64,000 bases of DNA from Fibrobacteria bacterium (lineage in GTDB: Bacteria; Fibrobacterota; Fibrobacteria; UBA11236): positions 87,144-151,143 of the forward strand of contig JANYDA010000001.1 in the NCBI GenBank assembly GCA_025360005.1, written 5' to 3'. This document shows positions 22,540 through 63,438 of this stretch, piece by piece; within the stretch, counting starts at the first letter, position 1; every line of letters begins with the position of its first letter. Below the pieces are notes generated by a model, which saw nothing but the letters and a program-made list of their open reading frames with translations, was not told where the DNA came from and did no database searches. The position numbers and the translations under genes are program-made.

Positions 22540-22615
<76 letters not shown>

Positions 22616-48855: not shown

Positions 48856-48869
48856 TAGGCTCCGGTTTT

Positions 48870-50285
48870 TCAGAACCCCCAGGTAAGGCGCGTCAAGTAA
48901 TAGAATTGCCGCTTGGGATCGGTCAGTACCGTGCGGGTGGTGAGGTTGTAATTGAGATCGATGAGACGCAGGTGATCGGAAGCCACCTGCAATACCACGG
49001 TCAGCCCGAAAGGGAACTTTTTCTTGGCGAAAACCGACCAACGCCAATCGTCCTTATGCCCCACGCTATCCGTATCCCAATGATCCGCTGCATACCCTAT
49101 GGGAAGCGGGGTATTGCCCGTCAGTTGCGTGCTCCAATCATTCGCGTAAGGATTCCGCAGGTATTCGGCCTGGAGGCATAGGATATCCGCCGCCCCAAAG
49201 GCCGGTAAATTTATGCCGGCCATTACGGGCATGCGGTCGATCCGTTTTGTGAAATAGACCGGATAGTTTTTGACGCCGAGCAAAGCCACTTCGGAAAAGA
49301 TGCGCAAGTCTTCCTCGCCCAACCCCGCCTTCCCCTCCAGGCCGAACAGGGCCTTGAGATCCAAGGCCAGGCGCCCCATCAATTTGGTGGACTGATAGGT
49401 ATAATACTGTTTGGAAAGCGATTTGACGGCGGTGGTATCCTGGGCAATGGCCGATCCCGAATATGCCCCTCCCGCGGTGTCGAGGGAAGCATAGTCCCCG
49501 GCCGGCACGAAAACCTTGCGGGACCCGTCATGGATATCCGCAATCGAATCTCCCGCGAAGTGGAAGTAGTAATAATTCCTGGGGGTGGTGAAAGACGGCC
49601 GCGCGGGAAGCACCCGATCAAAGCTGATCCCGCCGCCTATTTCCAGCGCCCGGCCCAAATGGAGCGAGCCCAGATAGGTCAGGCTCATATCGTAAAGCGG
49701 ATAGCGGTTGGTCTCCGAGGTAAACAGGATGTGGTTTTCCATCCTTCCATTCCAGGCATGGTTCTCCAGATCGACGCCCAGCAGGCCGGCCCGCGCGTCA
49801 TCGGCTATGATATAGCCGCCGGTTTGCAAGGTGAGCGGATAGGCGCTGGAGCGGAAAAGGTATTCGCCCAGGTTGCGCGCGTCCTGATTGTACTTCAGCG
49901 GGAATTGGCCCAAGGTCATTTTCAAATAAGGATTGCCGGGATCCCCGAAGCTATAGTCCAGGGAGGCTTGGGATATCCCGAAAATGAACATGCGCTGTTC
50001 CGTCTGGATGAAATTCAATTCGGTCGGGAAGGCATAGAAGTACATGCCGCCCAGCCCTAAGCGGAAGCGGAGCCTGCCGTTGACTACCGCTTCGTCATCC
50101 ACCCAGACACCCAGGCGGTTGATTACCTGATTCGAATACCCTTCCCCTTTGACTCCGTATACCAACGAATCGATCATCCCTCCTTCAAAGGTGCCCAGGA
50201 AGGAAATCGGCTTCCGCTCGATGTCCATGGGCGCGGCGGCTGAGACGAAAACGGCTAGCAGAAACAAAATCATTCGCATCGGCAT
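48870..50285 (-). CDS. Outer-membrane beta-barrel protein (porin-like), last gene of a minus-strand operon
   Basis: Signal peptide MPMRMILFLLAVFVSAAA; amphipathic beta-strand pattern throughout; C-terminal …LTRLTWGF ending in Phe. 471 aa. Confidence 0.55.
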   Translation of the reverse strand: MPMRMILFLLAVFVSAAAPMDIERKPISFLGTFEGGMIDSLVYGVKGEGYSNQVINRLGVWVDDEAVVNGRLRFRLGLGGMYFYAFPTELNFIQTEQRMFIFGISQASLDYSFGDPGNPYLKMTLGQFPLKYNQDARNLGEYLFRSSAYPLTLQTGGYIIADDARAGLLGVDLENHAWNGRMENHILFTSETNRYPLYDMSLTYLGSLHLGRALEIGGGISFDRVLPARPSFTTPRNYYYFHFAGDSIADIHDGSRKVFVPAGDYASLDTAGGAYSGSAIAQDTTAVKSLSKQYYTYQSTKLMGRLALDLKALFGLEGKAGLGEEDLRIFSEVALLGVKNYPVYFTKRIDRMPVMAGINLPAFGAADILCLQAEYLRNPYANDWSTQLTGNTPLPIGYAADHWDTDSVGHKDDWRWSVFAKKKFPFGLTVVLQVASDHLRLIDLNYNLTTRTVLTDPKRQFYYLTRLTWGF

Positions 50286-50321
50286 GGAGGAACCCTTTTG
50301 GAATCGGAGTGGACTTGCGCT

Positions 50322-51740
50322 TCAGGGCCCGGAAAGGCCGGCGCGCTCGGGTATTGGCAGGGCGCGGCCGTTGAGAATGAACCATCCAGGCTCGTGCCCG
50401 GGCGCCGGAAAGGTGAACGAGCCTTGATTGGCCCGGTCGATCCTGTCCATGCTTGCCTTGAGAGGCGAGGGCAAGGATGGCGATCCGCGCCGGATAGCCG
50501 TGGCCCGGGGAACCTGCAGATAGATTTGCACCCCGTTCTTACTCGATACCACGATGTCGGGGAATCCGTCCTTGTCCAGATCAGCCACTTGGAACTGCGT
50601 CCCCACGCCGGAGTGATCCGCTTTGATGACATAGTAGTCGAATTTCGGGTTGGCTCCCGGCGTGACCTTGACCCAGTACAATTCGGCCGGTTCCTGATCC
50701 CCCTTGGATCCGCTATGCGCCCACTTCCGCTTTCCGCCTACCACGTCCGGAATCCCGTCCCCGTCCAAATCCGCTTGGTACAAGGCGTGGTTGGTGAAAG
50801 GAACGGGGTTGATCATGTTCTGCTTCCAGGCATTGTTCCCCAGGTTCTCCACCCACCAGATTCCGGGGCCGTGGGAGGACGCGGAGATAAAATCCATCTT
50901 CCCATCCTGGTTGAAATCGTAGGGAAGCATATGGCTCATGGCGTTTCCGCCGTCGGTTTGCAGGATTGTCGCGTTGAGGAAATTCGCGGCGGTATACACC
51001 CAGGCTCCCGTACCGTTGGCAGGCTGTTTATACCATCCCAGCGAGTGCACCAGATCCGGTTTGCCGTCCCCGTCCAGATCGAAAACCCCCATGCCATGGC
51101 TGAACACATAGCTGTATTGGCCTTTGCCGGCCGGGCAGATTTTGGTTTCCACGAAATTGCCGGCATTGTCGGGCGTCCAATAGCTCCAGCTGTTGTCGCC
51201 ATAGTTGGAGGTCACCAGGGATTTTTTCCCGGAGCCGTTGATGTCCCCGAACCAGGATTGTTCTACGCCGTAGGAATACCCCTGGCCCGCTCCCAGCACG
51301 TGCGCGGTCCAGGACGAATTGGTTTTGCTTCCCTTGGGGTTCTCGTACCAAGTGGGATGATCCCCGTGATAGGGCACCACCAACTCGTCGGGCCAGCCGT
51401 CTCCGTTGAAATCCGCCACGAACGCGCCGTGGCAATTACTATACCGGCCGGGATCGTAATAACCGTTGGCGGCGCGCGCATTCGTCCCCACCGCGGGATG
51501 GATGGGATGCCGGATCCAAGCGCCGGCCATTTGGGGATTGGGCGATTCATACCAGTAATCGCCCACGTACAGATCGTTCTTCCCATCCCCATCCACGTCC
51601 GCAACGCCCACCCCTTCGGAAACGAACAGGCTGTCCACCACGTAATGATCGAATTGGATGGGACCGCTGATAAGCCGTTCCGCATTCGCCGCGCAGCATA
51701 GGATGCCTACGGTCGAGAAGATCAAATCCACGTTTCGCAT
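50322..51740 (-). CDS. FG-GAP/VCBS-repeat beta-propeller protein, secreted
   Basis: Six Ca-binding-type repeats (DVDGDGKNDL, DFNGDGWPDE, DLDGDGKPDL, DFNQDGKMDF, DLDGDGIPDV, DLDKDGFPDI); signal peptide. Confidence 0.75.
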   Translation of the reverse strand: MRNVDLIFSTVGILCCAANAERLISGPIQFDHYVVDSLFVSEGVGVADVDGDGKNDLYVGDYWYESPNPQMAGAWIRHPIHPAVGTNARAANGYYDPGRYSNCHGAFVADFNGDGWPDELVVPYHGDHPTWYENPKGSKTNSSWTAHVLGAGQGYSYGVEQSWFGDINGSGKKSLVTSNYGDNSWSYWTPDNAGNFVETKICPAGKGQYSYVFSHGMGVFDLDGDGKPDLVHSLGWYKQPANGTGAWVYTAANFLNATILQTDGGNAMSHMLPYDFNQDGKMDFISASSHGPGIWWVENLGNNAWKQNMINPVPFTNHALYQADLDGDGIPDVVGGKRKWAHSGSKGDQEPAELYWVKVTPGANPKFDYYVIKADHSGVGTQFQVADLDKDGFPDIVVSSKNGVQIYLQVPRATAIRRGSPSLPSPLKASMDRIDRANQGSFTFPAPGHEPGWFILNGRALPIPERAGLSGP

Positions 51741-51753
51741 TCGCTTCCCTTGG

Positions 51754-53436
51754 TCAGAATATGATTTTGGCCGTCACTACGCCTTCGGCCGCGACAACCT
51801 TCAATAAATAAAGACCGGGACGCAATGAGGCGGGCACTCGGTACTCCTGCGGAATGGTTCCCTGGACCGAGAACGCCAGCACCCCGTTCGGATCCCAGAG
51901 TGAAATGGAGTGGGCGCCGGATGAACCGATGGAAATGAGCCGCGATCGCATTCGCAGCCAGCCCGCATCCCTGAGACCCAGGATGGGCGTAGCATTCGCC
52001 GCCGGGAAAAGTCCAGCGTCCTTGCAAGCGCCGGTATAGCGTATCCGGAACAGCCCTCCCTCATAGGACACGAAATACAGAACGCCATCCGGACCATGCT
52101 GCATATCCACGATTTGACCCGGATAGGAAAGCTGCGCGAATATTTTCACATCGCCCGTGATACTGTCCAAACTCGGGTTCATGCTCCAAAGGTGGAATCC
52201 ATAGGAAACATTCCGGCAATCCGCCACCAGCCATTTCCGATCGAATTGCGGCGGGAATCCCGATGGGGGCAGATTCCTCCCGTCATACCGGAACAAAGGT
52301 CCCGAGGTGGGGCATCCCTTGGTGCGCTCATACAGGGCGTTGTGGTTGGGCGGAAGCTTGTGCACGGGGACATCGGGATTGTTGTTGACGATATTGTTCC
52401 TGTCGTGGATGGGCGGGATGGGGATCCCATACAGCGTCCCGCTGCCCGCGCCGTTCCTGGCCAAATGCTCGGGACCCATTTCGTAACGCGCCGCGAAGTA
52501 AGGCCAACCGCCGTAGAAGGGTTCTTTGATAACGTCGAACTCTTCCAGGGGAACCGCATTGTTGGGATTGGTATTCGGATCCGGATCGGGACCGAACTCC
52601 GAAAACAGCATGCGGCCGCTTACGGAATCCGAATGGAGGGTGTAGACGTTCCGATTGCCTTTGATATAGAGTTCCGGACGCACTTTGGCGGAATCGGAAT
52701 AGTCGTCCGCGAGCAACGGATTACCGGAAGCGCGGTATTTGGCCGCGAAGAACTCGCCGAAATTCCCGGGCGGTACGCCGTATCCCCTTGCGCCATTGTC
52801 GGGATGGATGCGCAGGATGGCGCCGCGCAGGTCCTTGGTATTCCCTGGCCCCAGTTCCATGGTTTGATTGTCTCCCACGGCGATCCACAAATTCCCTTTG
52901 GCATCGAAGCTCATTACGCCGCCGGTATGCCAATGATTGCGGCCGCTGGGGATTTTCAGGAGGATTTTTTCCGAAGCCGGATCGATGTTTCCGTCCGGGG
53001 CCAGGGCGAACCTGGAGATACGGAACGAGGACTCGGCGGGTTGCCCGCTTTTATTCTGGAAGGAGTAGTTGAAATAGATGAATCGGTTTCGTTGAAAATC
53101 CGGATCCAAGGCTATTCCAATCAAACCATCTTCGTTACTGGTCGCCGCGGGCAGATTGCCGATTGTGGTCACCTGGCCGGTGGCCCCGTCGAATTTCCGC
53201 ACGGCACCGGACTTTTCGGTGAAGTAAACCTCGACATTATGATCCGGCCGTTCGGCAACGGTCAATTTGGTGGGGCCGTTGGCCCCCGTCAACGGTTTGG
53301 CCAGGTTCTCGATCAGGAAGTTCTGGTCGCTCGCCTGGCATCCCTTGTACGTCCCCAAATCCACCGCCCGGGCAAGGCCCGCGAAAGAGAATAGGATGAA
53401 ACAAGGCCACAGGGCGCGTTTGCCGACTTCATACAT
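51754..53436 (-). CDS. PQQ-dependent soluble sugar dehydrogenase-family beta-propeller with C-terminal sorting-domain-like tail; paralogue of 23788-25212
   Basis: …LIGIALDPDF…, GAILRIHPDNG (sGDH GK/AILRI motif); signal peptide; terminal …PGLYLLKVVAAEGVVTAKIIF typical of T9SS-type CTDs. Confidence 0.7.
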   Translation of the reverse strand: MYEVGKRALWPCFILFSFAGLARAVDLGTYKGCQASDQNFLIENLAKPLTGANGPTKLTVAERPDHNVEVYFTEKSGAVRKFDGATGQVTTIGNLPAATSNEDGLIGIALDPDFQRNRFIYFNYSFQNKSGQPAESSFRISRFALAPDGNIDPASEKILLKIPSGRNHWHTGGVMSFDAKGNLWIAVGDNQTMELGPGNTKDLRGAILRIHPDNGARGYGVPPGNFGEFFAAKYRASGNPLLADDYSDSAKVRPELYIKGNRNVYTLHSDSVSGRMLFSEFGPDPDPNTNPNNAVPLEEFDVIKEPFYGGWPYFAARYEMGPEHLARNGAGSGTLYGIPIPPIHDRNNIVNNNPDVPVHKLPPNHNALYERTKGCPTSGPLFRYDGRNLPPSGFPPQFDRKWLVADCRNVSYGFHLWSMNPSLDSITGDVKIFAQLSYPGQIVDMQHGPDGVLYFVSYEGGLFRIRYTGACKDAGLFPAANATPILGLRDAGWLRMRSRLISIGSSGAHSISLWDPNGVLAFSVQGTIPQEYRVPASLRPGLYLLKVVAAEGVVTAKIIF

Positions 53437-53656
53437 ATTCCCAACCTAGCGGTTTTAATGGTCAGGACGGGGATATTTTCCTCGGCAGGAAGGAAAATCG
53501 CTGCCCGATACGCAGCGGATTCTCATGCGGCGCGCCGTTTATGCCCTTGCTCTTTCCGGCCAAGTCTTAACTTCCTGCATTCAGGCGCGAGGCATGGCCA
53601 CGCTTACGCGCCCACCCGGGGAAATCACGGCCGTGTTCGATCGAGTGCGATATTTC

Positions 53657-54928
53657 ATGAAGAAACCGTTCCTTCGCCGTTACCTCCCCTATTCCCTGCT
53701 GCTGTTGGGATCCACCCTGCATACCGCCGAAGCCTTCACCCATCCGGGTCTGTTGGATACCCGCCTGGATTTGCAACGCATGAAAAAGGAAGTGGCCGCT
53801 GGCACGCATCCTTACCTTGACGGCTGGAACAAATTGCGCCAGGATCCGCACGCCTCCCCCGCTTACAATCCGCTTCCCTGGGATACCGTCACGCGCACCC
53901 TGGGCGCGGTAGGCACGGGCTTTCAGGATTTGAACTCGGACGCCCTGGCGGCCTATTACAACGCCATCGCATGGAACATCACCGGTGACAGCGCCCGCGC
54001 CCGCAAGTCCGTGGAAATCCTGAACGCCTGGTCCGGCCGGTTGCAGGCTATCGAAGGCGACGGCGATAAGTATTTGGTGGCCGGCATTTACGGATCGCAA
54101 CTGCTCTTCGCCGCGGAAATCATCCGGCATACCTATGCCGGTTGGAAACCGGCGGATATAAACCGCTTCACGGATCTGATGCTGCGGGTCTTCTATCCGC
54201 TGAACCATGATTTCCTGATCCATCACAACGGTTCGCGCGTGGATCATTATTTCGCCAATTGGGATGCCTGCCAAATGCTGGCCATCGCGGCCTTGGGGGT
54301 GTTTCTCGACGACTCGGCCAAATACCTGGAAGCCACGGAATATTTCAAATCCGGCCGCGGCAACGGTTGCATCCTGAAGGCGGTATGGGACGGGGAAACC
54401 GGCCAATTGCAGGAAAGCGGACGCGATCAGGCGCATGCCCAATTAGGCATCGGGCTGCTGGCCGAGCTTTGTGAAATCGCCTGGAGCCAAGGGGACGATC
54501 TGTACGGATTCGCCGGCAACCGCCTGCTAAAAGGTTTCGAGTACACCGCCGGCTATTTACTGGGCAACGACGTCCCCTTCAAGATCTATTCCGATTCCAG
54601 CCGCACCTTTACCGTCATCTCCGCGGTGAATCGGGAACAGCGCCGGCCCATTTACGAAATGGTCTGGAACCATTACGAAAACCGCCGCGGCACCCCGGCA
54701 CCCTACACCAGACAATTGGCCGAGGCGATCCGACCCGAAGGCTACCATGCCGATCATCCCGGCTTCGGAACCTTGTTCTTCACTTTGCCGCGCCTTCCCA
54801 TCGCCATGCAAAAGCCGCGTCCCATGGGGGCCCGGCCCGGAGAAGAAACCTTTGTCGACGCCTTGGGCAAAATAAGCCCAGGCAAACTTTCCAGGAAGGA
54901 ATATCCATGTCCCAAAACAAGCGGTTAG
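53657..54928 (+). CDS. Alginate-lyase-family polysaccharide lyase, secreted; paralogue B
   Basis: The track ORF starts at 53525; likely start MKKPFLRRYLPYSLLLLGSTLHTAEA (signal peptide). FTHPGLLDTRLDLQRMKK…GRDQAHAQLGIGLLAELCEIAWSQGDDLYG…LLKGFEYTAGY parallels paralogue A. Confidence 0.65.
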   Translation: MKKPFLRRYLPYSLLLLGSTLHTAEAFTHPGLLDTRLDLQRMKKEVAAGTHPYLDGWNKLRQDPHASPAYNPLPWDTVTRTLGAVGTGFQDLNSDALAAYYNAIAWNITGDSARARKSVEILNAWSGRLQAIEGDGDKYLVAGIYGSQLLFAAEIIRHTYAGWKPADINRFTDLMLRVFYPLNHDFLIHHNGSRVDHYFANWDACQMLAIAALGVFLDDSAKYLEATEYFKSGRGNGCILKAVWDGETGQLQESGRDQAHAQLGIGLLAELCEIAWSQGDDLYGFAGNRLLKGFEYTAGYLLGNDVPFKIYSDSSRTFTVISAVNREQRRPIYEMVWNHYENRRGTPAPYTRQLAEAIRPEGYHADHPGFGTLFFTLPRLPIAMQKPRPMGARPGEETFVDALGKISPGKLSRKEYPCPKTSG

Positions 54929-56043
54929 CCCCCAAAAAACTCTGGTTGATTTTGCTGGGCGCCTTGGCGTCATCGGCGGCGGCCGCGGAAGATTCGGCGT
55001 GGGTGCAAATTTTCAACGGCAAGGATATGTCCGACTGGGATATCAAATTCCAACATCATCCTCTGAATGAAAATTTCCGCAACACCTACAAGGTGGTCAA
55101 TGGCCTCTTGACCGTCGACTACGGCGCTTGGCCGGACTTTCCCAGCTTCGGCCATGCGGCTTACAAGGTGCGGCCTTTCACCCATTACCTGTTGCGGTCC
55201 GAATACCAGGTGTGGGGAAAGCAGGCTCCGGGAGGCCCCGGTTGGGCCGTGGAGAACAACGGTTTCATGCTCCACTCCCAATCCATGGCGAGCATGGGCC
55301 TGGATCAGGACTTCCCCATCAGCCTGGAAGCCCAGCTATTGGGCCCCCACAATGGTTCGGGCTCGCCGAATGCCAAAGGCACCATGAATCTGTGCACGCC
55401 CGGCACGGCCTTCTATACCACGCCCAGCGGCGGCAGCGTTGTGACCAGCCATTGCCTGTCGGCGACGGCGAATCCGCGCGCTCCCGTGGATACGGGGTGG
55501 GAACGGGTTTCGGCGCTGGTGCTCGCGGATTCCCTGCTCCAGTTCCGAGTGGACGATAAATCCGTGCTGGAATTCTACCGGCCGGTCTATTGGAAGGGGA
55601 ATGTGTCCGGAGATACCCTCCATGCCCCCGCAAACGGCACGCCCTTGACCGGCGGATATATCACCATCCAAGCGGAAAGCGCGCCTTACCGGTTCAGGAA
55701 AATCGAAGTCTTGAATCTGGTGGGCTGCATGGATAAAAAGTCTCCCGCCTACCGCTCCTATTTCGTGAAAAATGATCCGGCCGCCTGCTCGGCCACGGTC
55801 TTGGATGCGCCGGGGGCATCCGCCTCCTGGGGCCTCAGCATGGAAGAAGATGCGGACGGCATCTCCCTGCGCGGATCCCAGGCCGGCATCCTGGAATTGC
55901 GTGCGCTTTCCGGAGCCATCCTGCAACGCTATCCGGAGGCGCAATCCTTCCAAAGGCATATCCGGCTTCCTGGCCGGGGAGTGTACCTGATAACGTGGAA
56001 AACCGGGCGCGGAACCTGGATTAAGAAGTGGGGAATGCCATGA
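54907..56043 (+). CDS. DUF1080 (3-keto-disaccharide hydrolase-like) secreted protein with sorting-domain-like tail
   Basis: …WVQIFNGKDMSDWDIKF…ENNGFMLHSQ…GWERVSALVLADSLLQFRVDDKSVLEF…GYITIQAESAPYRFRKIEV is the classic DUF1080 jelly-roll. Signal peptide. Confidence 0.8.
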   Translation: MSQNKRLAPKKLWLILLGALASSAAAAEDSAWVQIFNGKDMSDWDIKFQHHPLNENFRNTYKVVNGLLTVDYGAWPDFPSFGHAAYKVRPFTHYLLRSEYQVWGKQAPGGPGWAVENNGFMLHSQSMASMGLDQDFPISLEAQLLGPHNGSGSPNAKGTMNLCTPGTAFYTTPSGGSVVTSHCLSATANPRAPVDTGWERVSALVLADSLLQFRVDDKSVLEFYRPVYWKGNVSGDTLHAPANGTPLTGGYITIQAESAPYRFRKIEVLNLVGCMDKKSPAYRSYFVKNDPAACSATVLDAPGASASWGLSMEEDADGISLRGSQAGILELRALSGAILQRYPEAQSFQRHIRLPGRGVYLITWKTGRGTWIKKWGMP

Positions 56044-56924
56044 AGTATTCGATGAACATGTTGCTATGGAGCGATTGCGTTCTGGAGGAAAAATATTTCC
56101 CTCTCTTTGATCGGCTTAAGGAAATGGGATTCGACGGGATTGAAATCCCCGTTTTCGATCCGCAACCGGATAAATACGCGGCCCTGGGCCGGAGGCTGGA
56201 CGCCGTGGGATTGGAACGCACGGCGGTAACGGTAGCCGGTCGGGAAGCGAATCCCATCAGTCCTGATCCCGCCAACCGTAAACGCGCGGTGGAAAACCTC
56301 AAGAAAGTATTGGACTGCTGCCAAAGCGGCGGGATGGAGATATTGGTCGGACCCTACTATGCCGCCATCGGCGAGTTCACGGGCCAAGCGCCCACCGGGG
56401 ACGAATGGAAATGGGGATTGGAAAGCATGCGGCAGGTAGCGGAGTACGGGCGGAAACTGGGCGTAGGCCTGGCGCTGGAATTCCTTAACCGCTTCGAGAT
56501 CTATTTCCTCAACTGCGCCGCCGATACGGACCGGTTCGTCCGGGAAATCGGCATTCCAGGCTGCGGCAGCCTCTACGATACTTTCCACGCCAACATCGAG
56601 GAAAAATCGGCCTCCCTTGCCATCGAAAAAATCGCGGGAACGTTGCGGCAAGTGCATATCTCCGAAAACGATCGCAGCACCCCGGGACTAGGAAACGTAG
56701 CCTGGGAGGAAACCTTTCTTTCCCTGCAGCGGGTGGGGTATGATGGCTGGCTTACCATCGAAGCGTTCGGCATGGCCATGCCCGCCTTGTCGGCGGCGAC
56801 CAAGATTTGGCGCCGGATGTTCCAGGACGAAGAGAAGCTCGCCAGGGACGGCCTGGCCTTCATGAAAAAAATGGCCGCGGGCGGACCCGGAAGGAGCGCC
56901 CTTTTGGAAAAGCCGCTCCCCTGA
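56040..56924 (+). CDS. Sugar phosphate isomerase/epimerase (xylose-isomerase-like TIM barrel)
   Basis: …FDGIEIPVFD…GLALEFLNRFE…HISENDRSTPGLGNVAWEETFLSLQRVGYDGWLTIEAF… ATGA overlap with the DUF1080 stop. Confidence 0.85.
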   Translation: MKYSMNMLLWSDCVLEEKYFPLFDRLKEMGFDGIEIPVFDPQPDKYAALGRRLDAVGLERTAVTVAGREANPISPDPANRKRAVENLKKVLDCCQSGGMEILVGPYYAAIGEFTGQAPTGDEWKWGLESMRQVAEYGRKLGVGLALEFLNRFEIYFLNCAADTDRFVREIGIPGCGSLYDTFHANIEEKSASLAIEKIAGTLRQVHISENDRSTPGLGNVAWEETFLSLQRVGYDGWLTIEAFGMAMPALSAATKIWRRMFQDEEKLARDGLAFMKKMAAGGPGRSALLEKPLP

Positions 56925-56944: not shown

Positions 56945-57412
56945 TCACCCGGGATTCCCATGGGATTTGTCGATGCTTGCTTGCACCATGCCCAGGAAAT
57001 TCGCAACGTCCACGCTCAGGAAAGGTTTCGCGAAAAGGCCATCCATCCCCGCTTTCATGCAACGATCCCGGTTTTCCTCCATCGCATCGGCCGTGACCGC
57101 GAAAATGGGAATCCGCTTTCGGCCCAGGAGAATTTCTTTTTTCCGGATCGCCATGGTGGTTTCGTAGCCATCCATGCCGGGCATCTGGCAGTCGAGTAAA
57201 ACGGCCGCGATGCCTCCCTGGTCCAGGAGTTCCAGGGCTTCAGCGCCGTCTTGGGCTATCTTCACGGACCAGCCCTGTTTCTGGAAAAGCATGGCGACGA
57301 TTTTCTGGCTCAAATAATTGTCTTCAGCCAGGAGGATTGTCTTTGCGACTGAGGAAGGCAACGCTGCAGAGGAGGACGCCGGCATCCGTTTGGAATCACC
57401 CTGGTTTTCCAC
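56945..57412 (-). CDS. Single-domain response regulator (CheY-like receiver)
   Basis: …TILLAEDNYLSQKI…AVLLDCQMPGMDGYETT…KPF… Divergent from the hybrid HK operon. Confidence 0.85.
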   Translation of the reverse strand: MENQGDSKRMPASSSAALPSSVAKTILLAEDNYLSQKIVAMLFQKQGWSVKIAQDGAEALELLDQGGIAAVLLDCQMPGMDGYETTMAIRKKEILLGRKRIPIFAVTADAMEENRDRCMKAGMDGLFAKPFLSVDVANFLGMVQASIDKSHGNPG

Positions 57413-57785: not shown

Positions 57786-60158
57786 ATGGGTTTGTTCCGC
57801 ATCCTTCGATTCCAGGATCCCGCGAATCCCTCGAGGACTCCCCTTCCGGTAAACTTGGAAGGCATACCCTGCGAAGTCACCCATGTGGAAACCACGGCCG
57901 CATTCGAGGACGCGCTATCCCGGGGCTTCTTCAACCTGATACTATGCGAAGACGGTATTCCCGGGGGATGGGGGGATACCCAGGCAAAGCGGGTGTTTTC
58001 CACCGGCAAGGCCCACAGCGGCGGGGTACGCTGGCGGTTGCGCGGCGAAACGGAGTTCCGTTGGTCCTACTTCAAATCCGTCCCCATCCTGAACGGGGAT
58101 GGCAGCATCGGAATGGTGATTAACACCAGCGTGGACATCACCGAACTTAAAAAAAGCCAGCAGGCGCTCGAAGAGAAGGAGCGCTTCTTCGCCATGTCCT
58201 TGGACATGCTGTGCATCTTGGGTTTCGACGGCCATTTCAAGCAGCTGAATCCCGCTTGGGAAAAATGCCTGGGTTGGAGCAATGAGGAAATGCTTACCCG
58301 CCACAACAGCGAACTCATCCATCCGGAGGACAGCGAGCAGACGCTGGAAGCGGCGCGCAAGATGTTCCAGGGCGAAACCCCGATTTCATTCGAGAACCGC
58401 TACCTGTGCAAGGACGGGACCTACAGGTGGCTGCAATGGAACTCCACCGCGCATATGGAGGCCAAGGTGATTTTCGGCTTGGCGCGGGATATCACGGACC
58501 GAAAGCGCATTGATCAGGAGATCCTCAAGGCCAAGGAAAAAGCGGAGGAATCGAGCCGCGCCAAGGGCAGGTTCCTGGCCAATATGAGCCATGAAATCCG
58601 CACGCCCATGAACGGCATCATGAGCATGGCCGGATTGCTGGCGGATATGGACTTGGATGAAAAGCAAAAGCATTTCGTACGCATCATCCAGACTTCCGGG
58701 AATTCCCTGCTGCGTATCATCAACGACGTTCTGGATTTTTCCAAAATAGAACAAGGGAAGCTCCAGCTCTATGAAAAGCCGTTCCACCTACCTGAAACGG
58801 TTTCCGACGTGGTAGCGCTTTTGGAAACCCAGGCGGAGGAAAAGGGCTTGGATCTAAGCTGGTCGTTCGCGCCGGGTATGCCCAACAGCTATCAAGGGGA
58901 TGCGGGGCGGTTGCGGCAGGTCCTGATCAACCTGCTCGGGAATGCCATCAAGTTCACGCTCAAGGGGAAGGTGGATCTTCGCGTAATGGCATCCGCTCGG
59001 GGGGACGATGGGGTGCTGCTCCGATTCGAAATCGAAGATACCGGTATCGGGATCAATTCGGAGACGGAGGCCAAACTGTTCCAGGCCTTTTCGCAATCCG
59101 ATACTTCCGACACCCGGCGCTTCGGCGGCACTGGATTGGGATTGGCGATCTGCAAACAACTGGTCGGATTATTACGGGGGGAAATAGGATATGCCAAGCG
59201 GTCGGGACAGGGCAGCATCTTCTGGTTCACGGCGCGCATGGGCATCCATGATCCGAAAAAGGACGTGGATCCCCGGGTGCGGGCGCAGCCTCTTCCGCCG
59301 GCGCCGGAAAACCTTCCCCCCCTGAAAATCCTGGTGGCGGAAGACAACAGGATCAATCAAATGGTGGTCCTCAGCCTGTTGGAAAGGCTGGGGCAGCGCG
59401 CTGATCTGGCGGTCAATGGCCGCCAAGCGCTGGAGGCCTGCCACCTCCAGGACTATGATCTCATCTTGATGGACTGCCAGATGCCGGAGATGGACGGCTA
59501 TACGGCATCCAACAGTATCCGCCATCTGGAAAGGAAGAATCAAAAGAAGCGCGCATTCATAGTAGCCATGACCGCGGACGCCCAAACCGGTACGCGGGCA
59601 AGATGCGAGGCCGCCGGCATGGACGGCTACATCAGCAAGCCCATCATGACCCAATCCCTCCAGGAAGCGATCGCGAAAACGTATTCGGGAACGGAGCAGG
59701 AGGAATTCCACGGTAAACCCGATGAAAGCGAAGTCCCGTCCGCCGCGGATGATTTGGACCAGCGCATTCTGAACCGGCTCCGGGCCCTTTCCGAGGATGA
59801 TGAAGCCGGAATGTTCCTGGAGTTGGTCTCCGGCTTTCTGGAGCAATCGGCGGAGAAAAGCGCGGAACTGAAAAGGCTTCTGGGCGCACAGGATTATCCC
59901 GCCCTGGGAAAGGCGGCGCATGGGTTGAAAGGACTGAGCCTGAATTTCGGGGCCGCGGCCATGGCCAGGAAATGCGATTCGCTTCAGTCCGCGGCGAAGA
60001 TCGAGGACAGGCAAAGCGCTCTGGAAATCCTCTCCGGATTGGATGCCGCTTTGGCAAGGACGCGCGTCGCCCTATCCGGTCTCTCCGGCCTGGGCGGGCA
60101 GGGATGGGATATTTCAACGCCGGCTTCGCAACCGGAGAAAAGAGAGGCCGATGGCTAA
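57786..60158 (+). CDS. Hybrid sensor histidine kinase: PAS + HisKA/HATPase + receiver + Hpt
   Basis: PAS region; H-box ANMSHEIRTPMNGIMSMAGLL; G-boxes …EDTGIGI…GGTGLGLAICKQLV…; receiver ILVAEDNRINQ…LMDCQMPEMDGY…; C-terminal Hpt …GKAAHGLKGLSLNFGA. The first ~60 aa of the track ORF may not be translated. Confidence 0.9.
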   Translation: MGLFRILRFQDPANPSRTPLPVNLEGIPCEVTHVETTAAFEDALSRGFFNLILCEDGIPGGWGDTQAKRVFSTGKAHSGGVRWRLRGETEFRWSYFKSVPILNGDGSIGMVINTSVDITELKKSQQALEEKERFFAMSLDMLCILGFDGHFKQLNPAWEKCLGWSNEEMLTRHNSELIHPEDSEQTLEAARKMFQGETPISFENRYLCKDGTYRWLQWNSTAHMEAKVIFGLARDITDRKRIDQEILKAKEKAEESSRAKGRFLANMSHEIRTPMNGIMSMAGLLADMDLDEKQKHFVRIIQTSGNSLLRIINDVLDFSKIEQGKLQLYEKPFHLPETVSDVVALLETQAEEKGLDLSWSFAPGMPNSYQGDAGRLRQVLINLLGNAIKFTLKGKVDLRVMASARGDDGVLLRFEIEDTGIGINSETEAKLFQAFSQSDTSDTRRFGGTGLGLAICKQLVGLLRGEIGYAKRSGQGSIFWFTARMGIHDPKKDVDPRVRAQPLPPAPENLPPLKILVAEDNRINQMVVLSLLERLGQRADLAVNGRQALEACHLQDYDLILMDCQMPEMDGYTASNSIRHLERKNQKKRAFIVAMTADAQTGTRARCEAAGMDGYISKPIMTQSLQEAIAKTYSGTEQEEFHGKPDESEVPSAADDLDQRILNRLRALSEDDEAGMFLELVSGFLEQSAEKSAELKRLLGAQDYPALGKAAHGLKGLSLNFGAAAMARKCDSLQSAAKIEDRQSALEILSGLDAALARTRVALSGLSGLGGQGWDISTPASQPEKREADG

Positions 60159-60531
60159 AAAGGGACGGGTTCTGGTGATTGATGATGAAAAATTGATCGT
60201 CAAAACCACATGCATCCTCCTGAGGCATTTGGGGTACGAGACCCTGGAGGCTTACGGCGGCGAGTCGGGATTCACCATGGCCAAGGAAGGTAAGCCCACG
60301 CTCATCCTCCTGGACCTGGTGATGCCCGGCATGGATGGCTGGGAGGTATTGCGGAAACTCCGGGCGGATCCCGAAATGGCGAATGTCCCCGTGGTGATTT
60401 TCACCGCGAAGGAATACGCCAACGCCGAAGTGGTCGGCAACCTGCAAGGCGCCATCGGCCATATCGGAAAGCCCTTCGAGCCCGAGGATTTGGAAGAGGT
60501 CTTGCGGAAAATAGAGGGCGGCGATGCCTAA
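60151..60531 (+). CDS. Single-domain response regulator (receiver only)
   Basis: MAKKGRVLVIDDEKLIVK…LILLDLVMPGMDGWEVL…GKPF. The start overlaps the hybrid HK stop by 8 nt. The track ORF 60043-60531 extends upstream of the likely ATG. Confidence 0.85.
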   Translation: MAKKGRVLVIDDEKLIVKTTCILLRHLGYETLEAYGGESGFTMAKEGKPTLILLDLVMPGMDGWEVLRKLRADPEMANVPVVIFTAKEYANAEVVGNLQGAIGHIGKPFEPEDLEEVLRKIEGGDA

Positions 60532-61603
60532 TCCCATGATAGTCGACTATGAGGGACTGAAGAAAATCCTCGATCAGTTTTCCTGCGGCGTTATCCTTGC
60601 CGGCGAGGACGGCGAAATCCTGGTTTGCAACGGCAAGGCTCCCGCGTTGTTGCAAACCGATCCCATCGACCTGATGGAAAGAGGGGTGGCTGCCGCGCCC
60701 GCCTGGTCCGGCCTGGCATCCGCGATCCGTTCCGCCTGCCAAACCCAACAGCTCCGGCAATCGGTGGAAGCGTCCCATGACGGCAAGCGCTTTTCCATTA
60801 CCGTGGTGAGGGACGGCCTCTGCGTTTACGGCAAGGCCTGCATTGTGGCCATGATTGACGACATCACCCGCCAGAAAGATCTCGAAGAGTTATGCTCGGG
60901 GTTCTTTTCCGAATTTCTAAGGCGCATAAAAGGCCCGCTGACCTCGGTGAAAACCGCCTTGTCCGTTCTCAGCTCGGACCAATACGCTTCCCTGGACACC
61001 GAGGCGCGCGAAGTGGCCAATCTTGGCCATGAAGAAGTACGCCGTCTGCACGCGCTACTGTCCGACATGGGGGATCTTTTCGCCCTGGACAGCCCTAACG
61101 CGGCCACGGATCTTTTTCTGGAGAACGTCGAGGTCCGCTCCGTCATTAACCGTTGCTTGCGCCGGGTGCAGAAGGGGCCTCACGGGCTGGACCGCAGGAT
61201 TGCGATTGCTTTGCCGGAAGGCGGGCCGCCCTTGTGTCTGGTGGCCGACTACGAAAAACTGGGGTTAGTCCTTTACCATCTTCTGGAAAATGCCTTGGCT
61301 TATTCTCCCGCTTCCGAGGCGGTGTACATCAAGGCCGCCCAGGCGGAAGGCATGATCGAGATCCGTGTCGAGGATCAGGGGATCGGGATCTCCCCTGCGG
61401 ATATGCCGCAGGTTTTCAACCGGTTTTTCCGGTCCTCCGATCCCGCGGCCGCCAAATCGGAAGGGGGCGGCCTGGGGCTGTTCCTGGCCAGGGGCTTTAC
61501 CCGGCTCATGGGCGGCACGCTGGTGCTGGAAAGCCGGCTTGGGAAGGGCACTACTGCGGTGATCCGCCTTCCCCGCCCCACCGAGGGGGGATGGATAGAA
61601 TGA
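60524..61603 (+). CDS. Histidine-kinase-like protein with intact HATPase_c but lacking the conserved phospho-acceptor His (candidate pseudokinase)
   Basis: PAS-like N-terminus. At the H-box position the sequence reads FFSEFLRRIKGPLTSV (60911-60943), where the SHELRTPLT consensus has become LRRIKGPLT with His replaced by Arg. N-box HLLENALAY; G-boxes DQGIGI…GGGLGLFLARGF… 8-nt overlap with the upstream RR. Confidence 0.65.
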   Translation: MPNPMIVDYEGLKKILDQFSCGVILAGEDGEILVCNGKAPALLQTDPIDLMERGVAAAPAWSGLASAIRSACQTQQLRQSVEASHDGKRFSITVVRDGLCVYGKACIVAMIDDITRQKDLEELCSGFFSEFLRRIKGPLTSVKTALSVLSSDQYASLDTEAREVANLGHEEVRRLHALLSDMGDLFALDSPNAATDLFLENVEVRSVINRCLRRVQKGPHGLDRRIAIALPEGGPPLCLVADYEKLGLVLYHLLENALAYSPASEAVYIKAAQAEGMIEIRVEDQGIGISPADMPQVFNRFFRSSDPAAAKSEGGGLGLFLARGFTRLMGGTLVLESRLGKGTTAVIRLPRPTEGGWIE

Positions 61604-63438
61604 AGGAAGGGGGCGAGGCCGACGACTTGATGCAGGGGCTTCAGGAGGAAATCGATCGGCTGGAAAAACTTCGGCATGTGGCGGCGATGGAGGAAAAGCC
61701 GGCGGGGCCGGCCAACCCCGATCGGGAAACGGTTTCTTGTATCCACGTGAAGGACGGCGGTTCCCTCAACCCCTCCTTTCTTAAAGGGATCGAGTTCGCG
61801 CGCCTGACCGTGGAATATAAACTTGAAGCCCTGCTTCCCTCCCAATTCCTTTTCCTGGCGGAAGTGGAAAAGGACGGAGTGATAGCCAACCGGGATAACC
61901 GGAGAAAATGCGAGCTGAGTCCCGGGGAAAATATTTCTTCCCGTATCGTAGCAGGCCTGGAAAGGTATCAGGCCAAGGTACGGGGACGGGTGATTGCCAT
62001 CGGCGATCAATTCCACATCCTTCCCTCGGACGTGGACGGAAAGATGGTTTCCCGGAAGGATGCCACGAATTTATCCGCCTATCTCGACGTCTACCCCGCT
62101 TTCGGCAGCGGACGCGTGACCGATTTGGCGGCGGTCAGGGAATTCCTGGAAAAGAACAACATCCGCTACGGCATTCGGGAAGGCGCGATCCTGGAAGCGC
62201 TCGAAAGCTGCGGCAAAACCCGGAAGCCCGTCAAGGATGTGCTCGTCTCCAAAGGATTCCCACCGGTGGACGGAAAACCCGGTTCCATCGAATATCTCTT
62301 CGATCGGAATTTCCAAGGTCCCCTGCACCTTGATTTGAACAATGAAGGCAAGGTCGATTTCCGGAACGTGAAATGGATTCCGGTGGTGACCCAGGATCAG
62401 TTGCTGGCGCGCATCACCTCCGCCGTTCCCGGTACCGATGGCGTGGACGTTACCGGCCGCAGCCTGCCTCCCAAGCCGATCCCCAAGTCCTATTTGGTAC
62501 CCGGTAGAAACGTGCGCACGGAGAAGGAGGAAACCGAATTCTATTCGGAAATCAACGGGTGCGTGCAGCTGAACGGATCCCTGCTGGACGTCATGAACGT
62601 CTTCGTGGTCAATTCGGATGTCGATTACCATACCGGGAACATCACCTTTGAAGGCAATATCATGATCACGGGAAGCGTGCGCAAAGGGTTCGAAGTAGCG
62701 GCGGATGGCGATATCCTGGTTCTGGAAAACGTGGAACCCTGCAAAGTCAAAGCCGGAAGGGACATCCACGTCAAGGGCGGCGCCCTGGGCGCGGGCAAGG
62801 GCCAGTTCCGGTTGGAGGCGGGACGGGACATTTCCGTGGGGTATTCGGAAAACGCCTGGCTCGAGGCCCATGGAGACATAGTAGTGGAAAACTTTTCCCT
62901 GCAAAGCTTCCTGTATTGCAGCGGCCGGATCCTCCTGGAGAAAAAAAAGGGGTCTTTGTTGGGCGGCGAAGCCATCGCCGCCAAGGGCGTCGAAGCCAAA
63001 TCCTTCGGGTCATCCTCGGGAATCAAAACCCACGTGGCCACCGGGGTCGATTATGCCCTCAAACGCCAGCAGGCATCGCTTGCGCGCCAGGCTTCCGAAT
63101 TGAATGAGGCCATGGCCAAGATCGATCGGTTCCTCCGTTCCCTGCTCGAGCTTTCCAGCCGCGGCGCCCTCCATCCTTCCAAAGCGCAAGCCCTCAAGGA
63201 GATCGTGGAAAAGCGCAGGCAGATTTCCAAAGCCCATGCGGCCATCACCACGCGAAGCCAGGAATTGGAATACCAACAGGAAAACCTGGAGCCGGGCCGG
63301 ATAAAAGCCATTGAAATAGTCCACCCGGAAGTATTCATTTCCATCCGCGGGCGGACCGTTAAGGTGGTAGAGTCCCACTACCGATCGCTTTTCCGCCTGG
63401 ACGAGAAAACCGACCAGATCATACGCGGACCCGCCTGA
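61600..63438 (+). CDS. FapA/DUF342-family protein (N-terminal FapA domain, beta-helix repeats, C-terminal coiled coil)
   Basis: The track ORF starts at 61153 in a frame overlapping the HK-like gene; the likely start is MKEGGEADD at 61600, an ATGA overlap with the upstream stop. Beta-helix repeat region …DVDYHTGNITFEGNIMITGSVRKGFEVAADGDILVLENVEPCKVKAGRDIHVKGGALG… and a C-terminal coiled coil. Confidence 0.65.
   Translation: MKEGGEADDLMQGLQEEIDRLEKLRHVAAMEEKPAGPANPDRETVSCIHVKDGGSLNPSFLKGIEFARLTVEYKLEALLPSQFLFLAEVEKDGVIANRDNRRKCELSPGENISSRIVAGLERYQAKVRGRVIAIGDQFHILPSDVDGKMVSRKDATNLSAYLDVYPAFGSGRVTDLAAVREFLEKNNIRYGIREGAILEALESCGKTRKPVKDVLVSKGFPPVDGKPGSIEYLFDRNFQGPLHLDLNNEGKVDFRNVKWIPVVTQDQLLARITSAVPGTDGVDVTGRSLPPKPIPKSYLVPGRNVRTEKEETEFYSEINGCVQLNGSLLDVMNVFVVNSDVDYHTGNITFEGNIMITGSVRKGFEVAADGDILVLENVEPCKVKAGRDIHVKGGALGAGKGQFRLEAGRDISVGYSENAWLEAHGDIVVENFSLQSFLYCSGRILLEKKKGSLLGGEAIAAKGVEAKSFGSSSGIKTHVATGVDYALKRQQASLARQASELNEAMAKIDRFLRSLLELSSRGALHPSKAQALKEIVEKRRQISKAHAAITTRSQELEYQQENLEPGRIKAIEIVHPEVFISIRGRTVKVVESHYRSLFRLDEKTDQIIRGPA

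What the first reader, a model, noticed from the sequence alone, without database searches (positions are those of the whole stretch)
60524..61603. HK-like protein in which the phospho-acceptor His of the H-box is replaced (…FSEFLRRIKGPLT…) while the ATP-binding N/G boxes are intact
At the position of the SHELRTPLT consensus the sequence has LRRIKGPLT (codons at 60911-60943). The downstream HATPase_c motifs (HLLENALAY, DQGIGI, GGGLGLFLARGF) are preserved. Such proteins can act as pseudokinases, phosphatases or ATP-dependent scaffolds. One embedded in an overlapping operon with a bona fide kinase suggests a regulatory decoy or partner.
Basis: seen in the sequence. Interest (0 to 1): 0.55.

Follow-up and report, generated by a model that had tools for sequence, protein, structure and literature searches.

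The report
Conserved histidine-less sensor-kinase look-alike
This gene encodes a sensor-kinase look-alike that has lost the histidine such kinases phosphorylate but keeps its ATP pocket; it always sits between a small receiver protein and a FapA-type scaffold protein, so it probably reads a phosphorylation signal rather than writing one.

Summary
ORF 60524-61603 (+) encodes a 359-aa cytoplasmic PAS-DHp-CA protein. Arg133 (AGG, 60920-60922) occupies the phospho-acceptor His position, and the N, G1, F and G2 ATP-binding boxes are intact.

This is not a strain-specific mutation. All 17 orthologues (41-67% identity) also lack the His: across the 18-member clade the position is Arg in 14, Pro in 3 and Lys in 1, using both Arg codon families. 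All keep the ATP-binding residues, and the former H-box/docking helix is their most conserved segment.

The clade sits inside a wider, uncharacterised family of about 350-aa proteins. In that family the His is never followed by the catalytic Glu/Asp, and it has also been replaced by Tyr or Gln on other branches.

Gene order is conserved: a phosphodonor (hybrid kinase ending in Hpt), a 125-aa receiver, the kinase-like protein, then FapA/DUF342. In the window each gene overlaps the next by 4-8 nt.

My best reading is a DivL-like pseudokinase that docks the phosphorylated receiver and passes its state to FapA. This is inference, not demonstration. A non-canonical ATP-dependent activity is not excluded, because the ATP pocket is conserved and a near-invariant His176 lies on helix α2. 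It is a new family of a known kind and of moderate interest.

The parts
57786..60158 (+). Bona fide hybrid histidine kinase (PAS-HisKA-HATPase_c-REC-Hpt, 790 aa) with a canonical SHEIRTP H-box. It is the first gene of the operon and the presumed phosphodonor, through its Hpt domain.
   Evidence: Pfam HisKA 6.7e-23, HATPase_c 4.5e-25, Response_reg 3.6e-23, Hpt 1.1e-09; translation. An Hpt-bearing gene is found upstream in all five distinct His-less cassettes examined.
60151..60531 (+). Single-domain receiver (126 aa) with a complete phospho-acceptor pocket (D11, D12, D55, T85, K107). It overlaps the kinase gene by 8 nt and the pseudokinase gene by 8 nt.
   Evidence: Pfam Response_reg 5.3e-22; NCBIfam hits to DivK-like/CheY-like single-domain receivers. 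The 126-aa product is on record as a called gene. Orthologous receivers of 124-142 aa lie immediately upstream of every family member examined.
60524..61603 (+). The finding: a histidine-less kinase-like protein (359 aa; alternative start ATG 60536 gives 355 aa, as in the orthologues).
60548..60862 (+). N-terminal PAS-like sensor domain (residues 9-113).
   Evidence: AlphaFold model with pLDDT about 90 and an alpha/beta PAS topology; weak Pfam PAS/PAS_7 hits at E about 0.1; Foldseek top hits are PAS-DHp-CA kinases WalK and VicK.
60866..61090 (+). DHp-type helical hairpin: alpha1 is residues 115-149, the loop 150-158, alpha2 159-189.
   Evidence: Secondary structure of model m72e2abdce711; ungapped alignment to the WalK and VicK DHp.
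60905..60943 (+). Degenerate H-box FSEFLRRIKGPLT. Arg133 (60920-60922, AGG) replaces the phospho-acceptor His, Arg134 replaces the catalytic Glu/Asp, and Gly137 replaces the phosphatase Thr/Asn.
   Evidence: Segment 130-146 is the most conserved part of the protein within the His-less clade (mean entropy 0.38, against 1.02 for CA and 1.11 for PAS).
61049..61051 (+). His176 on alpha2 (RRLHALL), the only conserved His in the DHp. It is a candidate alternative acceptor but is not specific to the His-less clade.
   Evidence: His in 17 of 18 clade members. In the other 43 family members the position is N17/H8/S5/V4/T4/I3/A1/G1. It coexists with His133 in P0123 and P0124.
61121..61573 (+). CA (HATPase_c) domain with all ATP-binding boxes: N box 61277-61303 (Asn256), G1 61373-61390 (D284-x-G-x-G288), F box 61415-61432, G2 61463-61498 (G314-x-G316-x-G318).
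   Evidence: Pfam HATPase_c 6.7e-24. N256, D284, G286, G288, F298, F301, G316 and G318 are 100% conserved and G314 is present in 17 of 18 clade members.
61600..63438 (+). FapA/DUF342 protein (612 aa): N-terminal helix, a beta domain (48-165), FapA_N, then a beta-solenoid. Its start overlaps the pseudokinase stop (ATGA).
   Evidence: Pfam FapA 1.8e-62, FapA_N 8.3e-34, weak MinC_C. Orthologues track the pseudokinase orthologues in identity. It lies directly downstream in all His-less cassettes. N-terminal model.

Best explanation
The gene encodes a conserved histidine pseudokinase. It keeps the histidine-kinase fold (PAS sensor, DHp dimerisation hairpin, ATP-binding CA domain), but it cannot autophosphorylate on the canonical site because that site is Arg133. 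It also lacks the canonical HisKA phosphatase motif.

The most likely mechanism is as follows. The upstream hybrid kinase autophosphorylates and passes the phosphoryl group His to Asp to His(Hpt) and then to Asp55 of the adjacent 126-aa receiver. The receiver, probably in its phosphorylated form, docks on the still highly conserved alpha1 surface of the pseudokinase. There the basic residues at 133/134 would face the acyl-phosphate. This binding changes the conformation or ATP-bound state of the pseudokinase, and the translationally coupled FapA protein is the output. FapA is a polar-scaffold type protein with a beta-solenoid.

This is the 'reverse signalling' logic described for Caulobacter DivL with DivK~P.

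What is shown: loss of the His; its conservation across the clade; the intact ATP-binding motifs; the conserved docking helix; and the conserved gene cassette with overlapping genes.

What is inferred: receiver binding, dependence on phosphorylation, a role for Arg133/134, and FapA as the output.
For: (1) His is replaced by Arg133, and the clade of 18 reads R14/P3/K1 at that position (17 orthologues at 41-67% identity). Codons include AGG, CGG and AAG, so the loss is old and the basic residue is mostly maintained.
(2) The motif following position 133 reads R-[IVLAM]-[KR]-G instead of E/D-x-x-T/N, so neither canonical kinase nor canonical phosphatase chemistry is available (motif per PMC12963549).
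(3) The stretch that docks receivers in HisKA kinases is the most conserved part of the protein in the His-less clade. G137 through A145 are invariant, and mean entropy is 0.38 against about 1.0 elsewhere. Counting from the His position, S141 and T144 correspond to HK853 A268 and A271, two of the partner-specificity positions named in PDB entry 4jas. K/R136 and T140 correspond to DivL R553 and T557, whose mutation disrupts DivK binding (PMC4211667).
(4) A 124-142-aa single-domain receiver with a complete active site and a highly conserved alpha1 (DDEKLIVK[ST]TC) is encoded immediately upstream of every family member examined.
(5) A dedicated phosphodonor for that receiver is always encoded just upstream. 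It is Hpt in His-less cassettes and a canonical HisKA kinase in His-containing ones, so the kinase-like protein is not needed as the receiver's kinase.
(6) FapA is always downstream and overlaps the pseudokinase gene by 1-4 nt in the His-less cassettes whose coordinates were seen. FapA orthologues diverge in step with the pseudokinase: 64-69% then 47-52% identity, against 63-67% then 41-46%.
(7) Within the wider family the His has also been replaced by Tyr (P0147, P0152) and Gln (P0137, P0148) on other branches, and no member has Glu/Asp after it. The conserved function of the family therefore does not seem to depend on canonical autophosphorylation.
(8) The fold matches PAS-DHp-CA kinases and also DivL (4q20, TM 0.70-0.75 on the target).
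Against: No binding, phosphorylation or localisation data exist for any member, and no characterised homologue was found.

Unlike DivL, which binds TNP-ATP weakly (57 uM; PMC4211667), and PsmA, whose ATP motifs are degenerate (PMC12963549), this clade keeps every ATP-binding signature. A purely passive reader does not obviously need that, so it hints at a nucleotide-dependent step the model does not explain.

Three clade members have Pro rather than a basic residue at 133, so a direct phosphate-reading role for that side chain is not universal.

The link to FapA rests on gene order only. AlphaFold-Multimer could not be run with these tools.
Confidence: 0.45

Rival explanations
1. It is still an ATP-dependent phosphotransferase but uses a non-canonical acceptor. 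The candidates are His176 on helix alpha2 (at the same bundle height as residue 133), a Ser/Thr of its own, or a residue of the receiver or FapA. Precedents are the His-less kinase-like domains that act as Ser/Thr kinases (SpoIIAB/RsbW, PDK/BCK, subfamily-2 ethylene receptors); those precedents come from my own knowledge.
For: All ATP-binding boxes are 100% conserved in the His-less clade, while some sister lineages that kept the His lost them (P0124, P0140, P0149). His176 is present in 17 of 18 clade members and in both Tyr variants. In the model, alpha1 ends at 149 and alpha2 starts at 159, which puts 176 level with 133.
Confidence: 0.2
2. It is a decoy or heterodimer partner of the upstream hybrid kinase. 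It would pair with or titrate the kinase, or lend its CA domain in trans, and so tune kinase output.
For: It is encoded in the same overlapping operon as a bona fide kinase. It has an intact CA domain with no acceptor of its own.
Against: BLASTP between the two proteins aligns only the CA domains (28% identity) and finds no similarity in the dimerisation helices, which determine pairing. In the orthologous cassette L001/L002 the upstream operon gene is only REC-Hpt, and the kinase is divergently encoded. The kinase architecture varies between cassettes, whereas the receiver and FapA neighbours are constant.
Confidence: 0.1
3. It is a dedicated phosphatase, or a stabiliser, of the phosphorylated receiver, working by a non-canonical mechanism. 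It would set the lifetime of receiver~P at the end of the phosphorelay.
For: The receiver-docking helix is conserved and the receiver gene is always adjacent. A separate phosphodonor is always present, so a sink or modulator would make sense.
Against: The HisKA phosphatase motif (E/D-x-x-T/N) is absent. Gly137 is invariant where Thr/Asn would position the water, and Arg134 replaces the acid (PMC12963549). DivL, the closest functional analogue, has no phosphatase activity (PMC4211667).
Confidence: 0.1
4. It is a decaying or recently inactivated kinase gene with no retained function.
For: The HisKA score is below the Pfam threshold.
Against: The reading frame is intact in all 18 clade members down to 41% identity. 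The ex-H-box, ATP motifs and operon context are strongly conserved, and Arg is encoded by both codon families.
Confidence: 0.02

Closest known systems
DivL of Caulobacter crescentus (histidine pseudokinase, PDB 4q20; PMC4211667)
   Same: It has the HisKA-type DHp plus CA fold with the phospho-acceptor His replaced. It works with a single-domain receiver (DivK) and a hybrid kinase (CckA). The DHp docking residues equivalent to DivL R553 and T557 are conserved here (K/R136, T140). Foldseek matches 4q20 with TM 0.70-0.75 on the target.
   Different: It is not an orthologue (24% identity in the Foldseek alignment, phmmer E 4.9e-12). It has Arg/Lys/Pro rather than Tyr, a single PAS and no membrane anchor rather than multiple PAS domains, and all ATP-binding motifs intact where DivL binds nucleotide poorly. 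Its neighbour and likely output is FapA, not the CckA-ChpT-CtrA pathway.
PsmA of Streptomyces (hybrid histidine pseudokinase at the polarisome; PMC12963549)
   Same: The H-box His is lost and the replacing residue varies between orthologues. The E/D-x-x-T/N phosphatase motif is lost, while the residues after the His position stay conserved. It is associated with a cell-pole scaffold (DivIVA there; a FapA-type protein here, by gene order only).
   Different: PsmA is a 1,300-aa hybrid with a long disordered linker and a C-terminal receiver, and its ATP-binding residues are degenerate. This protein is 359 aa, has a separate receiver, and has an intact ATP site.
WalK/VicK-type cytoplasmic PAS-DHp-CA kinase core (PDB 4u7n, 5c93, 4i5s)
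   Same: These are the best sequence and structure matches: phmmer 3e-23 to 4e-21, Foldseek E down to 2.6e-24 (top hit is the WalK-YycH integrative model 9a5d, then VicK 4i5s at 2.8e-20). The domain order is the same, the H-box alignment is ungapped, and the N/G1/F/G2 boxes match.
   Different: WalK and VicK have S-H-E-L-R-T-P and are active kinases and phosphatases. Here the motif is L-R-R-I-K-G-P. NCBIfam equivalog scores are far below their cut-offs, for example WalK 129 against 725.
GHKL Ser/Thr protein kinases without a phospho-His (SpoIIAB/RsbW anti-sigma factors; mitochondrial PDK/BCK; plant subfamily-2 ethylene receptors) - from my own knowledge
   Same: They have an ATP-binding Bergerat fold retained in the absence of an acceptor His.
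   Different: There is no STAS-domain antagonist or sigma factor in the cassette. HATPase_c_2 scores below threshold. This protein keeps a full DHp hairpin with a conserved receiver-docking face.
FapA (DUF342) of Vibrio vulnificus/cholerae, the neighbour's family (PMC6877527 and references 22 and 23 therein)
   Same: The downstream gene has FapA_N plus the FapA beta-solenoid. [quoted passage not shown]
   Different: In Vibrio the partner is a PTS protein, not a two-component module. The window's FapA carries an extra 156-aa N-terminal extension. No flagellar genes are nearby in the window.

Membership tests
HisKA-class sensor histidine kinase (Pfam HisKA + HATPase_c) | DHp helical hairpin followed by a CA domain | tested here: met
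   AlphaFold model: alpha1 115-149, alpha2 159-189, CA 200-350, pLDDT 84. Foldseek and phmmer match WalK, VicK and HK853.
HisKA-class sensor histidine kinase (Pfam HisKA + HATPase_c) | Phospho-acceptor His in the H-box of alpha1 | tested here: not met
   Arg133 aligns with the His of WalK and VicK. There is no His anywhere in alpha1. HisKA scores 25.5 bits, below the 26.9 cut-off, and the match starts after the His.
HisKA-class sensor histidine kinase (Pfam HisKA + HATPase_c) | Acidic residue at His+1 and Thr/Asn at His+4 (catalytic base; phosphatase motif E/D-x-x-T/N) | tested here: not met
   Arg134 and Gly137 are invariant in the clade. No member of the 61-sequence family has E/D at +1.
HisKA-class sensor histidine kinase (Pfam HisKA + HATPase_c) | N, G1, F and G2 ATP-binding boxes | tested here: met
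   HATPase_c 6.7e-24. N256, D284, G286, G288, F298, F301, G316 and G318 are 100% conserved in 18 sequences. The N-box Lys (NAxKY) is Ala259.
HisKA-class sensor histidine kinase (Pfam HisKA + HATPase_c) | ATP-dependent autophosphorylation | not testable with these tools
   Needs a [gamma-32P]ATP assay.
Histidine pseudokinase acting as a phospho-receiver sensor (DivL type) | H-box His replaced, and the replacement conserved among orthologues | tested here: met
   The 18-member clade reads R14/P3/K1 at position 133; the 17 orthologues are 41-67% identical to the window protein.
Histidine pseudokinase acting as a phospho-receiver sensor (DivL type) | Specific binding of a phosphorylated single-domain receiver through the DHp docking face | not testable with these tools
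   Indirect evidence only: an adjacent conserved receiver gene and a docking helix that is the most conserved segment.
Histidine pseudokinase acting as a phospho-receiver sensor (DivL type) | Orthology to DivL (Tyr at the His position, multi-PAS, membrane-anchored, CckA/CtrA pathway) | tested here: not met
   24% identity to 4q20; a single PAS; Arg rather than Tyr; a different gene neighbourhood. It works like DivL at most and is not a member of the DivL family.
Histidine pseudokinase acting as a phospho-receiver sensor (DivL type) | Impaired nucleotide binding | tested here: inconclusive
   The motifs predict competent ATP binding, unlike DivL and PsmA (PMC4211667, PMC12963549). Actual binding was not measurable.
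HK-fold histidine phosphotransferases (Spo0B/ChpT type; from my own knowledge) | Conserved acceptor His on the helical bundle, and a CA-like domain without ATP motifs | tested here: not met
   There is no His at 133 and the ATP motifs are intact. The cassette already contains an Hpt domain.
GHKL anti-sigma-factor Ser kinases (HATPase_c_2) | Family profile match and a STAS-domain substrate or sigma-factor partner | tested here: not met
   HATPase_c_2 scores 21.9 bits, below the 27.4 cut-off. No STAS or sigma gene is in the cassette. The FapA N-terminal fold is not STAS-like.

The most novel reading that the evidence does not exclude
The whole 'receiver, kinase-like protein, FapA' family may be a previously unrecognised signalling module. 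In it, a histidine-kinase fold with an atypical H-box would act as an ATP-gated adaptor. The H-box has no catalytic acid, and the His has been lost on several separate branches (to Arg/Lys/Pro, Tyr and Gln). The adaptor would bind the phosphorylated receiver and, depending on nucleotide, control assembly or localisation of the FapA beta-solenoid scaffold. Alternatively it would phosphorylate a non-His acceptor such as His176 or a FapA residue. Either version would explain why the ATP pocket is strictly kept in a clade that has no acceptor His.
Probability: 0.15. Interest if true: 0.7.

Novelty: new variant of a known kind. Interest (0 to 1): 0.45.

Why it matters
Histidine pseudokinases are known from only a few studied cases, such as DivL and PsmA. 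In those cases the ATP site is also impaired. Here a whole clade has lost the acceptor His for a long evolutionary time while keeping every ATP-binding signature and the receiver-docking helix. It is also locked into a conserved, translationally coupled cassette with a terminal phosphorelay receiver and a FapA-type scaffold protein.

If the proposed mechanism holds, it would be an independent second invention of 'reverse' two-component signalling. It would also give a concrete, testable link between phosphorelays and DUF342/FapA proteins, whose biochemical inputs are largely unknown outside Vibrio.

There is a practical point as well. Such proteins are routinely annotated as 'sensor histidine kinase', which miscounts active kinases in genome censuses.

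Tried and rejected
(1) 'Migrated histidine'. I tested whether His176 on alpha2 specifically replaces His133. It is enriched in His-less sequences (19 of 22) but is present in 6 of 39 His-containing members, including the nearest relatives. It is absent in P0007 and in the Gln variants. I kept it only as a low-probability rival.

(3) Heterodimer with the upstream kinase. There is no DHp similarity and the kinase neighbour is not constant. Downgraded.

(4) Taxonomy. The genome-contig scan found no close relative; L008-L010 are generic kinases. The metagenome scan added only L015-L017 as true members; L018-L038 are generic kinases. Ten window proteins are unnamed singletons from one 158-kb NCBI contig. 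The organism is undetermined. One distant His-containing member is from an Elusimicrobia MAG.

(5) Alignment A2 was too diverse for the search for related loci. The word-indexed profile search added few members.

(6) Literature. No paper combines DUF342 with HDOD, and no characterised member of this family was found. My recollection that Caulobacter CpaM is a DUF342 protein was wrong; the hit was DUF3426.

(7) The promoter/terminator scan found nothing above shuffled expectation inside the operon. Rfam found only a tRNA elsewhere.

(8) The DHp segment alone is too diverged to retrieve HK853 or DivL by sequence. Residue equivalences to those proteins therefore rest on counting from the His position along an ungapped helix.
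Full report
**1. The observation**

ORF 60524..61603 (+) encodes 359 aa. Pfam finds HATPase_c (6.7e-24, residues 242-352). HisKA scores only 25.5 bits, below the 26.9 cut-off, and its match begins at profile position 12, just past the phospho-acceptor His.

phmmer against all PDB chains aligns WalK 'FVSNVSHELRTPLTS' and VicK 'FVSNVSHELRTPLTS' without gaps to 'FFSEFLRRIKGPLTS'. Arg133 (AGG, 60920-60922) therefore occupies the His position. Arg134 occupies the position of the catalytic Glu, and Gly137 that of the Thr/Asn of the phosphatase motif. AGG differs from CAY at all three bases, so a single-base error cannot account for it.

An AlphaFold model built on 19 family sequences has mean pLDDT 84. 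It shows PAS (9-113), DHp helix alpha1 (115-149), a loop, alpha2 (159-189) and CA (200-350). Foldseek returns WalK, VicK, HK853 and also the pseudokinase DivL. Helix alpha1 contains no His.

**2. Conservation of the substitution**

A search of 5.8 billion proteins found 17 orthologues of 319-388 aa at 41-67% identity, all from metagenomes or MAGs and none with an informative name. None has His at position 133. With the window protein, the 18-member clade reads Arg in 14, Pro in 3 and Lys in 1.

At the DNA level the Arg is encoded by AGG (window, L015) or CGG (L003, L016, L017), and the Lys by AAG (L001). Relatives that have the His use CAC or CAT. The loss is therefore old and the basic residue is mostly maintained.

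N256, D284, G286, G288, F298, F301, G316 and G318 are 100% conserved in these 18 sequences. The most conserved stretch of the whole protein is 130-146, the former H-box and receiver-docking part of alpha1. Its mean entropy is 0.38, against 1.02 for CA and 1.11 for PAS, and G137-A145 are invariant. This is the signature of a protein under purifying selection for something other than canonical autophosphorylation.

**3. The wider family**

An exhaustive HMM search of 1.84 billion cluster representatives returned about forty further proteins of 335-361 aa that match end to end. Most of them carry His at 133, but within an unusual H-box, L-H-[RKSQG]-[LIF]-R-x-P-L-[TSA]-[TS]-x-K-T. None of the 61 sequences has Glu/Asp after the acceptor position, and the N-box Lys (NAxKY) is also missing.

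Other members have Tyr (P0147, P0152) or Gln (P0137, P0148) in place of the His. Three His-containing members have lost ATP-binding residues instead (P0124, P0140, P0149).

A neighbour-joining tree, without bootstrap, shows the Arg/Lys/Pro clade as monophyletic. Its nearest relatives are P0123 and P0124, and the Tyr and Gln variants sit on separate branches. This implies several independent losses of the His. The only named member is from an Elusimicrobia MAG. No characterised homologue and no paper on this cassette were found.

**4. Gene context**

In the window the four genes overlap:
- hybrid kinase 57786..60158 (PAS-HisKA-CA-REC-Hpt, canonical SHEIRTP H-box);
- receiver 60151..60531;
- pseudokinase 60524..61603;
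- FapA 61600..63438.

No promoter-like or terminator-like signal above shuffled expectation lies between them.

The same order, [...REC-Hpt] then receiver (124-126 aa) then His-less kinase-like protein then FapA, is seen in four other distinct His-less loci: L001/L002, L003, a JGI contig, and L015. In L001 the upstream gene is only REC-Hpt and the kinase is divergent.

His-containing relatives show a different order: [REC-PAS-HisKA-CA canonical kinase], receiver, kinase-like protein (His), an HDOD protein, then FapA. This is seen in L004-L006, L013 and a JGI contig. P0124, which has the His but a dead CA domain, is flanked directly by the receiver and FapA. The Tyr variant P0147 follows a canonical kinase and a receiver.

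Two neighbours are therefore constant, the small receiver and FapA, and a separate phosphodonor for the receiver is always encoded just upstream.

The receivers have a complete active site (D11, D12, D55, T85, K107 in the window) and a strongly conserved alpha1. FapA orthologues diverge in parallel with the pseudokinase.

**5. Mechanism**

The canonical kinase route (His plus an adjacent acid) and the canonical HisKA phosphatase route (E/D-x-x-T/N; PMC12963549) are both absent. The docking helix is nevertheless the most constrained element. A phosphorylatable single-domain receiver with its own phosphodonor is always adjacent.

The best fit is the logic shown experimentally for DivL. DivL has no kinase or phosphatase activity. 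It binds DivK~P through the receiver-docking face of its DHp, and the residue replacing the His faces the phosphorylation site (PMC4211667). Counting from the His position, DivL R553 and T557, whose mutation disrupts DivK binding, correspond to K/R136 and T140 here. HK853 specificity positions A268 and A271, named in PDB entry 4jas, correspond to the invariant S141 and T144.

I therefore propose that the phosphorelay ends on the receiver, that receiver~P docks on the pseudokinase, and that the translationally coupled FapA is the output. In Vibrio, FapA is a pole-localised protein whose localisation depends on the phosphorylation state of a partner (PMC6877527). Only the sequence, conservation and synteny facts are shown. 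Binding, phospho-dependence and the FapA link are inferred. Confidence is about 0.45.

**6. What this model leaves open**

DivL binds nucleotide poorly and PsmA has degenerate ATP motifs (PMC4211667, PMC12963549). This clade keeps all of its ATP motifs, while some sister lineages kept the His and lost the ATP site. That suggests a nucleotide-dependent step.

One possibility is a non-canonical acceptor. His176 on alpha2 is the only conserved His in the DHp (17 of 18 clade members). It lies level with residue 133, given that alpha1 ends at 149 and alpha2 starts at 159. However, the position is variable across the family, His176 predates the loss of His133 (P0123 and P0124 have both), and one clade member lacks both.

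The decoy/heterodimer idea is weakened by the lack of DHp similarity to the hybrid kinase and by the variable kinase neighbour. A decaying gene is excluded by the conservation.

**7. Comparison and verdict**

The protein is a homologue of HisKA kinases but fails two of their defining features, the acceptor His and the adjacent acid. It should not be annotated as an active sensor kinase, although NCBIfam and JGI-style naming would call it one.

It resembles DivL in logic but is not a DivL orthologue. It has 24% identity, a single PAS, Arg instead of Tyr, an intact ATP site and a different pathway.

It represents an independently evolved, conserved histidine-pseudokinase clade within an uncharacterised family tied to FapA/DUF342. 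That makes it a new variant of a known kind. Interest is moderate (0.45). The phenomenon is known in principle, but three things make it a good experimental lead: the intact ATP pocket, the repeated loss of the His within one family, and the fixed receiver/FapA cassette. The organism is undetermined, because all window proteins looked up are unnamed singletons from one 158-kb contig.

Noticed in passing
window 56945-57412 (-): A stand-alone 155-aa receiver-domain protein (Pfam Response_reg 8e-23) is encoded divergently, immediately upstream of the hybrid-kinase operon. It may be a further member of the same signalling node.
   Followed up: partly
window 36583-40662 (-): A second large hybrid kinase (MASE1-PAS-HisKA-HATPase_c-REC-Hpt, 1359 aa) lies in the same window.
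   Followed up: partly
window 44021-56924: A carbohydrate-degradation block: GH95, a CBM13-like protein, FG-GAP repeats, a GSDH-like protein, an alginate-lyase-like protein, a 3-keto-disaccharide hydrolase and a xylose-isomerase-like TIM barrel.
   Followed up: partly
   Followed up: yes
window 60460-60474 (receiver residues 104-108); L001, L003, L004, L012, L013, L014 receivers: The receiver's aromatic 'switch' position (CheY Tyr106 equivalent, just before K-P-F) is Tyr in cassettes whose kinase-like protein has His or Tyr. It is His in the Arg/Lys cassettes and Leu in L012. This may be a co-change with loss of the acceptor His.
   Followed up: no
L004-L006, L013 and JGI contig b9QGXGPX (relatives): His-containing family members have an HDOD-domain gene inserted between the kinase-like gene and FapA, and a canonical REC-PAS-HisKA-CA kinase upstream. 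His-less cassettes lack HDOD and have an Hpt domain upstream. The sample is small (3 distinct cassettes against 5).
   Followed up: partly
proteins P0124, P0140, P0149 (relatives): The lineages closest to the His-less clade kept His133 but lost ATP-binding residues (N-box Asn to His, G1 Asp to Tyr, or G2 glycines). This is the opposite kind of degeneration within the same family.
   Followed up: partly
window 60524 vs 60536: The start codon is ambiguous. ATG 60524 has a GAGG motif 8 nt upstream and overlaps the receiver stop, whereas orthologues start at the equivalent of ATG 60536 (MIVDYEGL). This makes no difference to the finding.
   Followed up: no
window 59172-60537 (-), 61375-62016 (-), 62071-62904 (-): Long antisense ORFs (213-297 aa) overlap the operon genes. 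They have no family support and are most likely by-products of the high G+C content.
   Followed up: no
window 22543-22615 (-): A single tRNA gene is the only Rfam match in the window.
   Followed up: no
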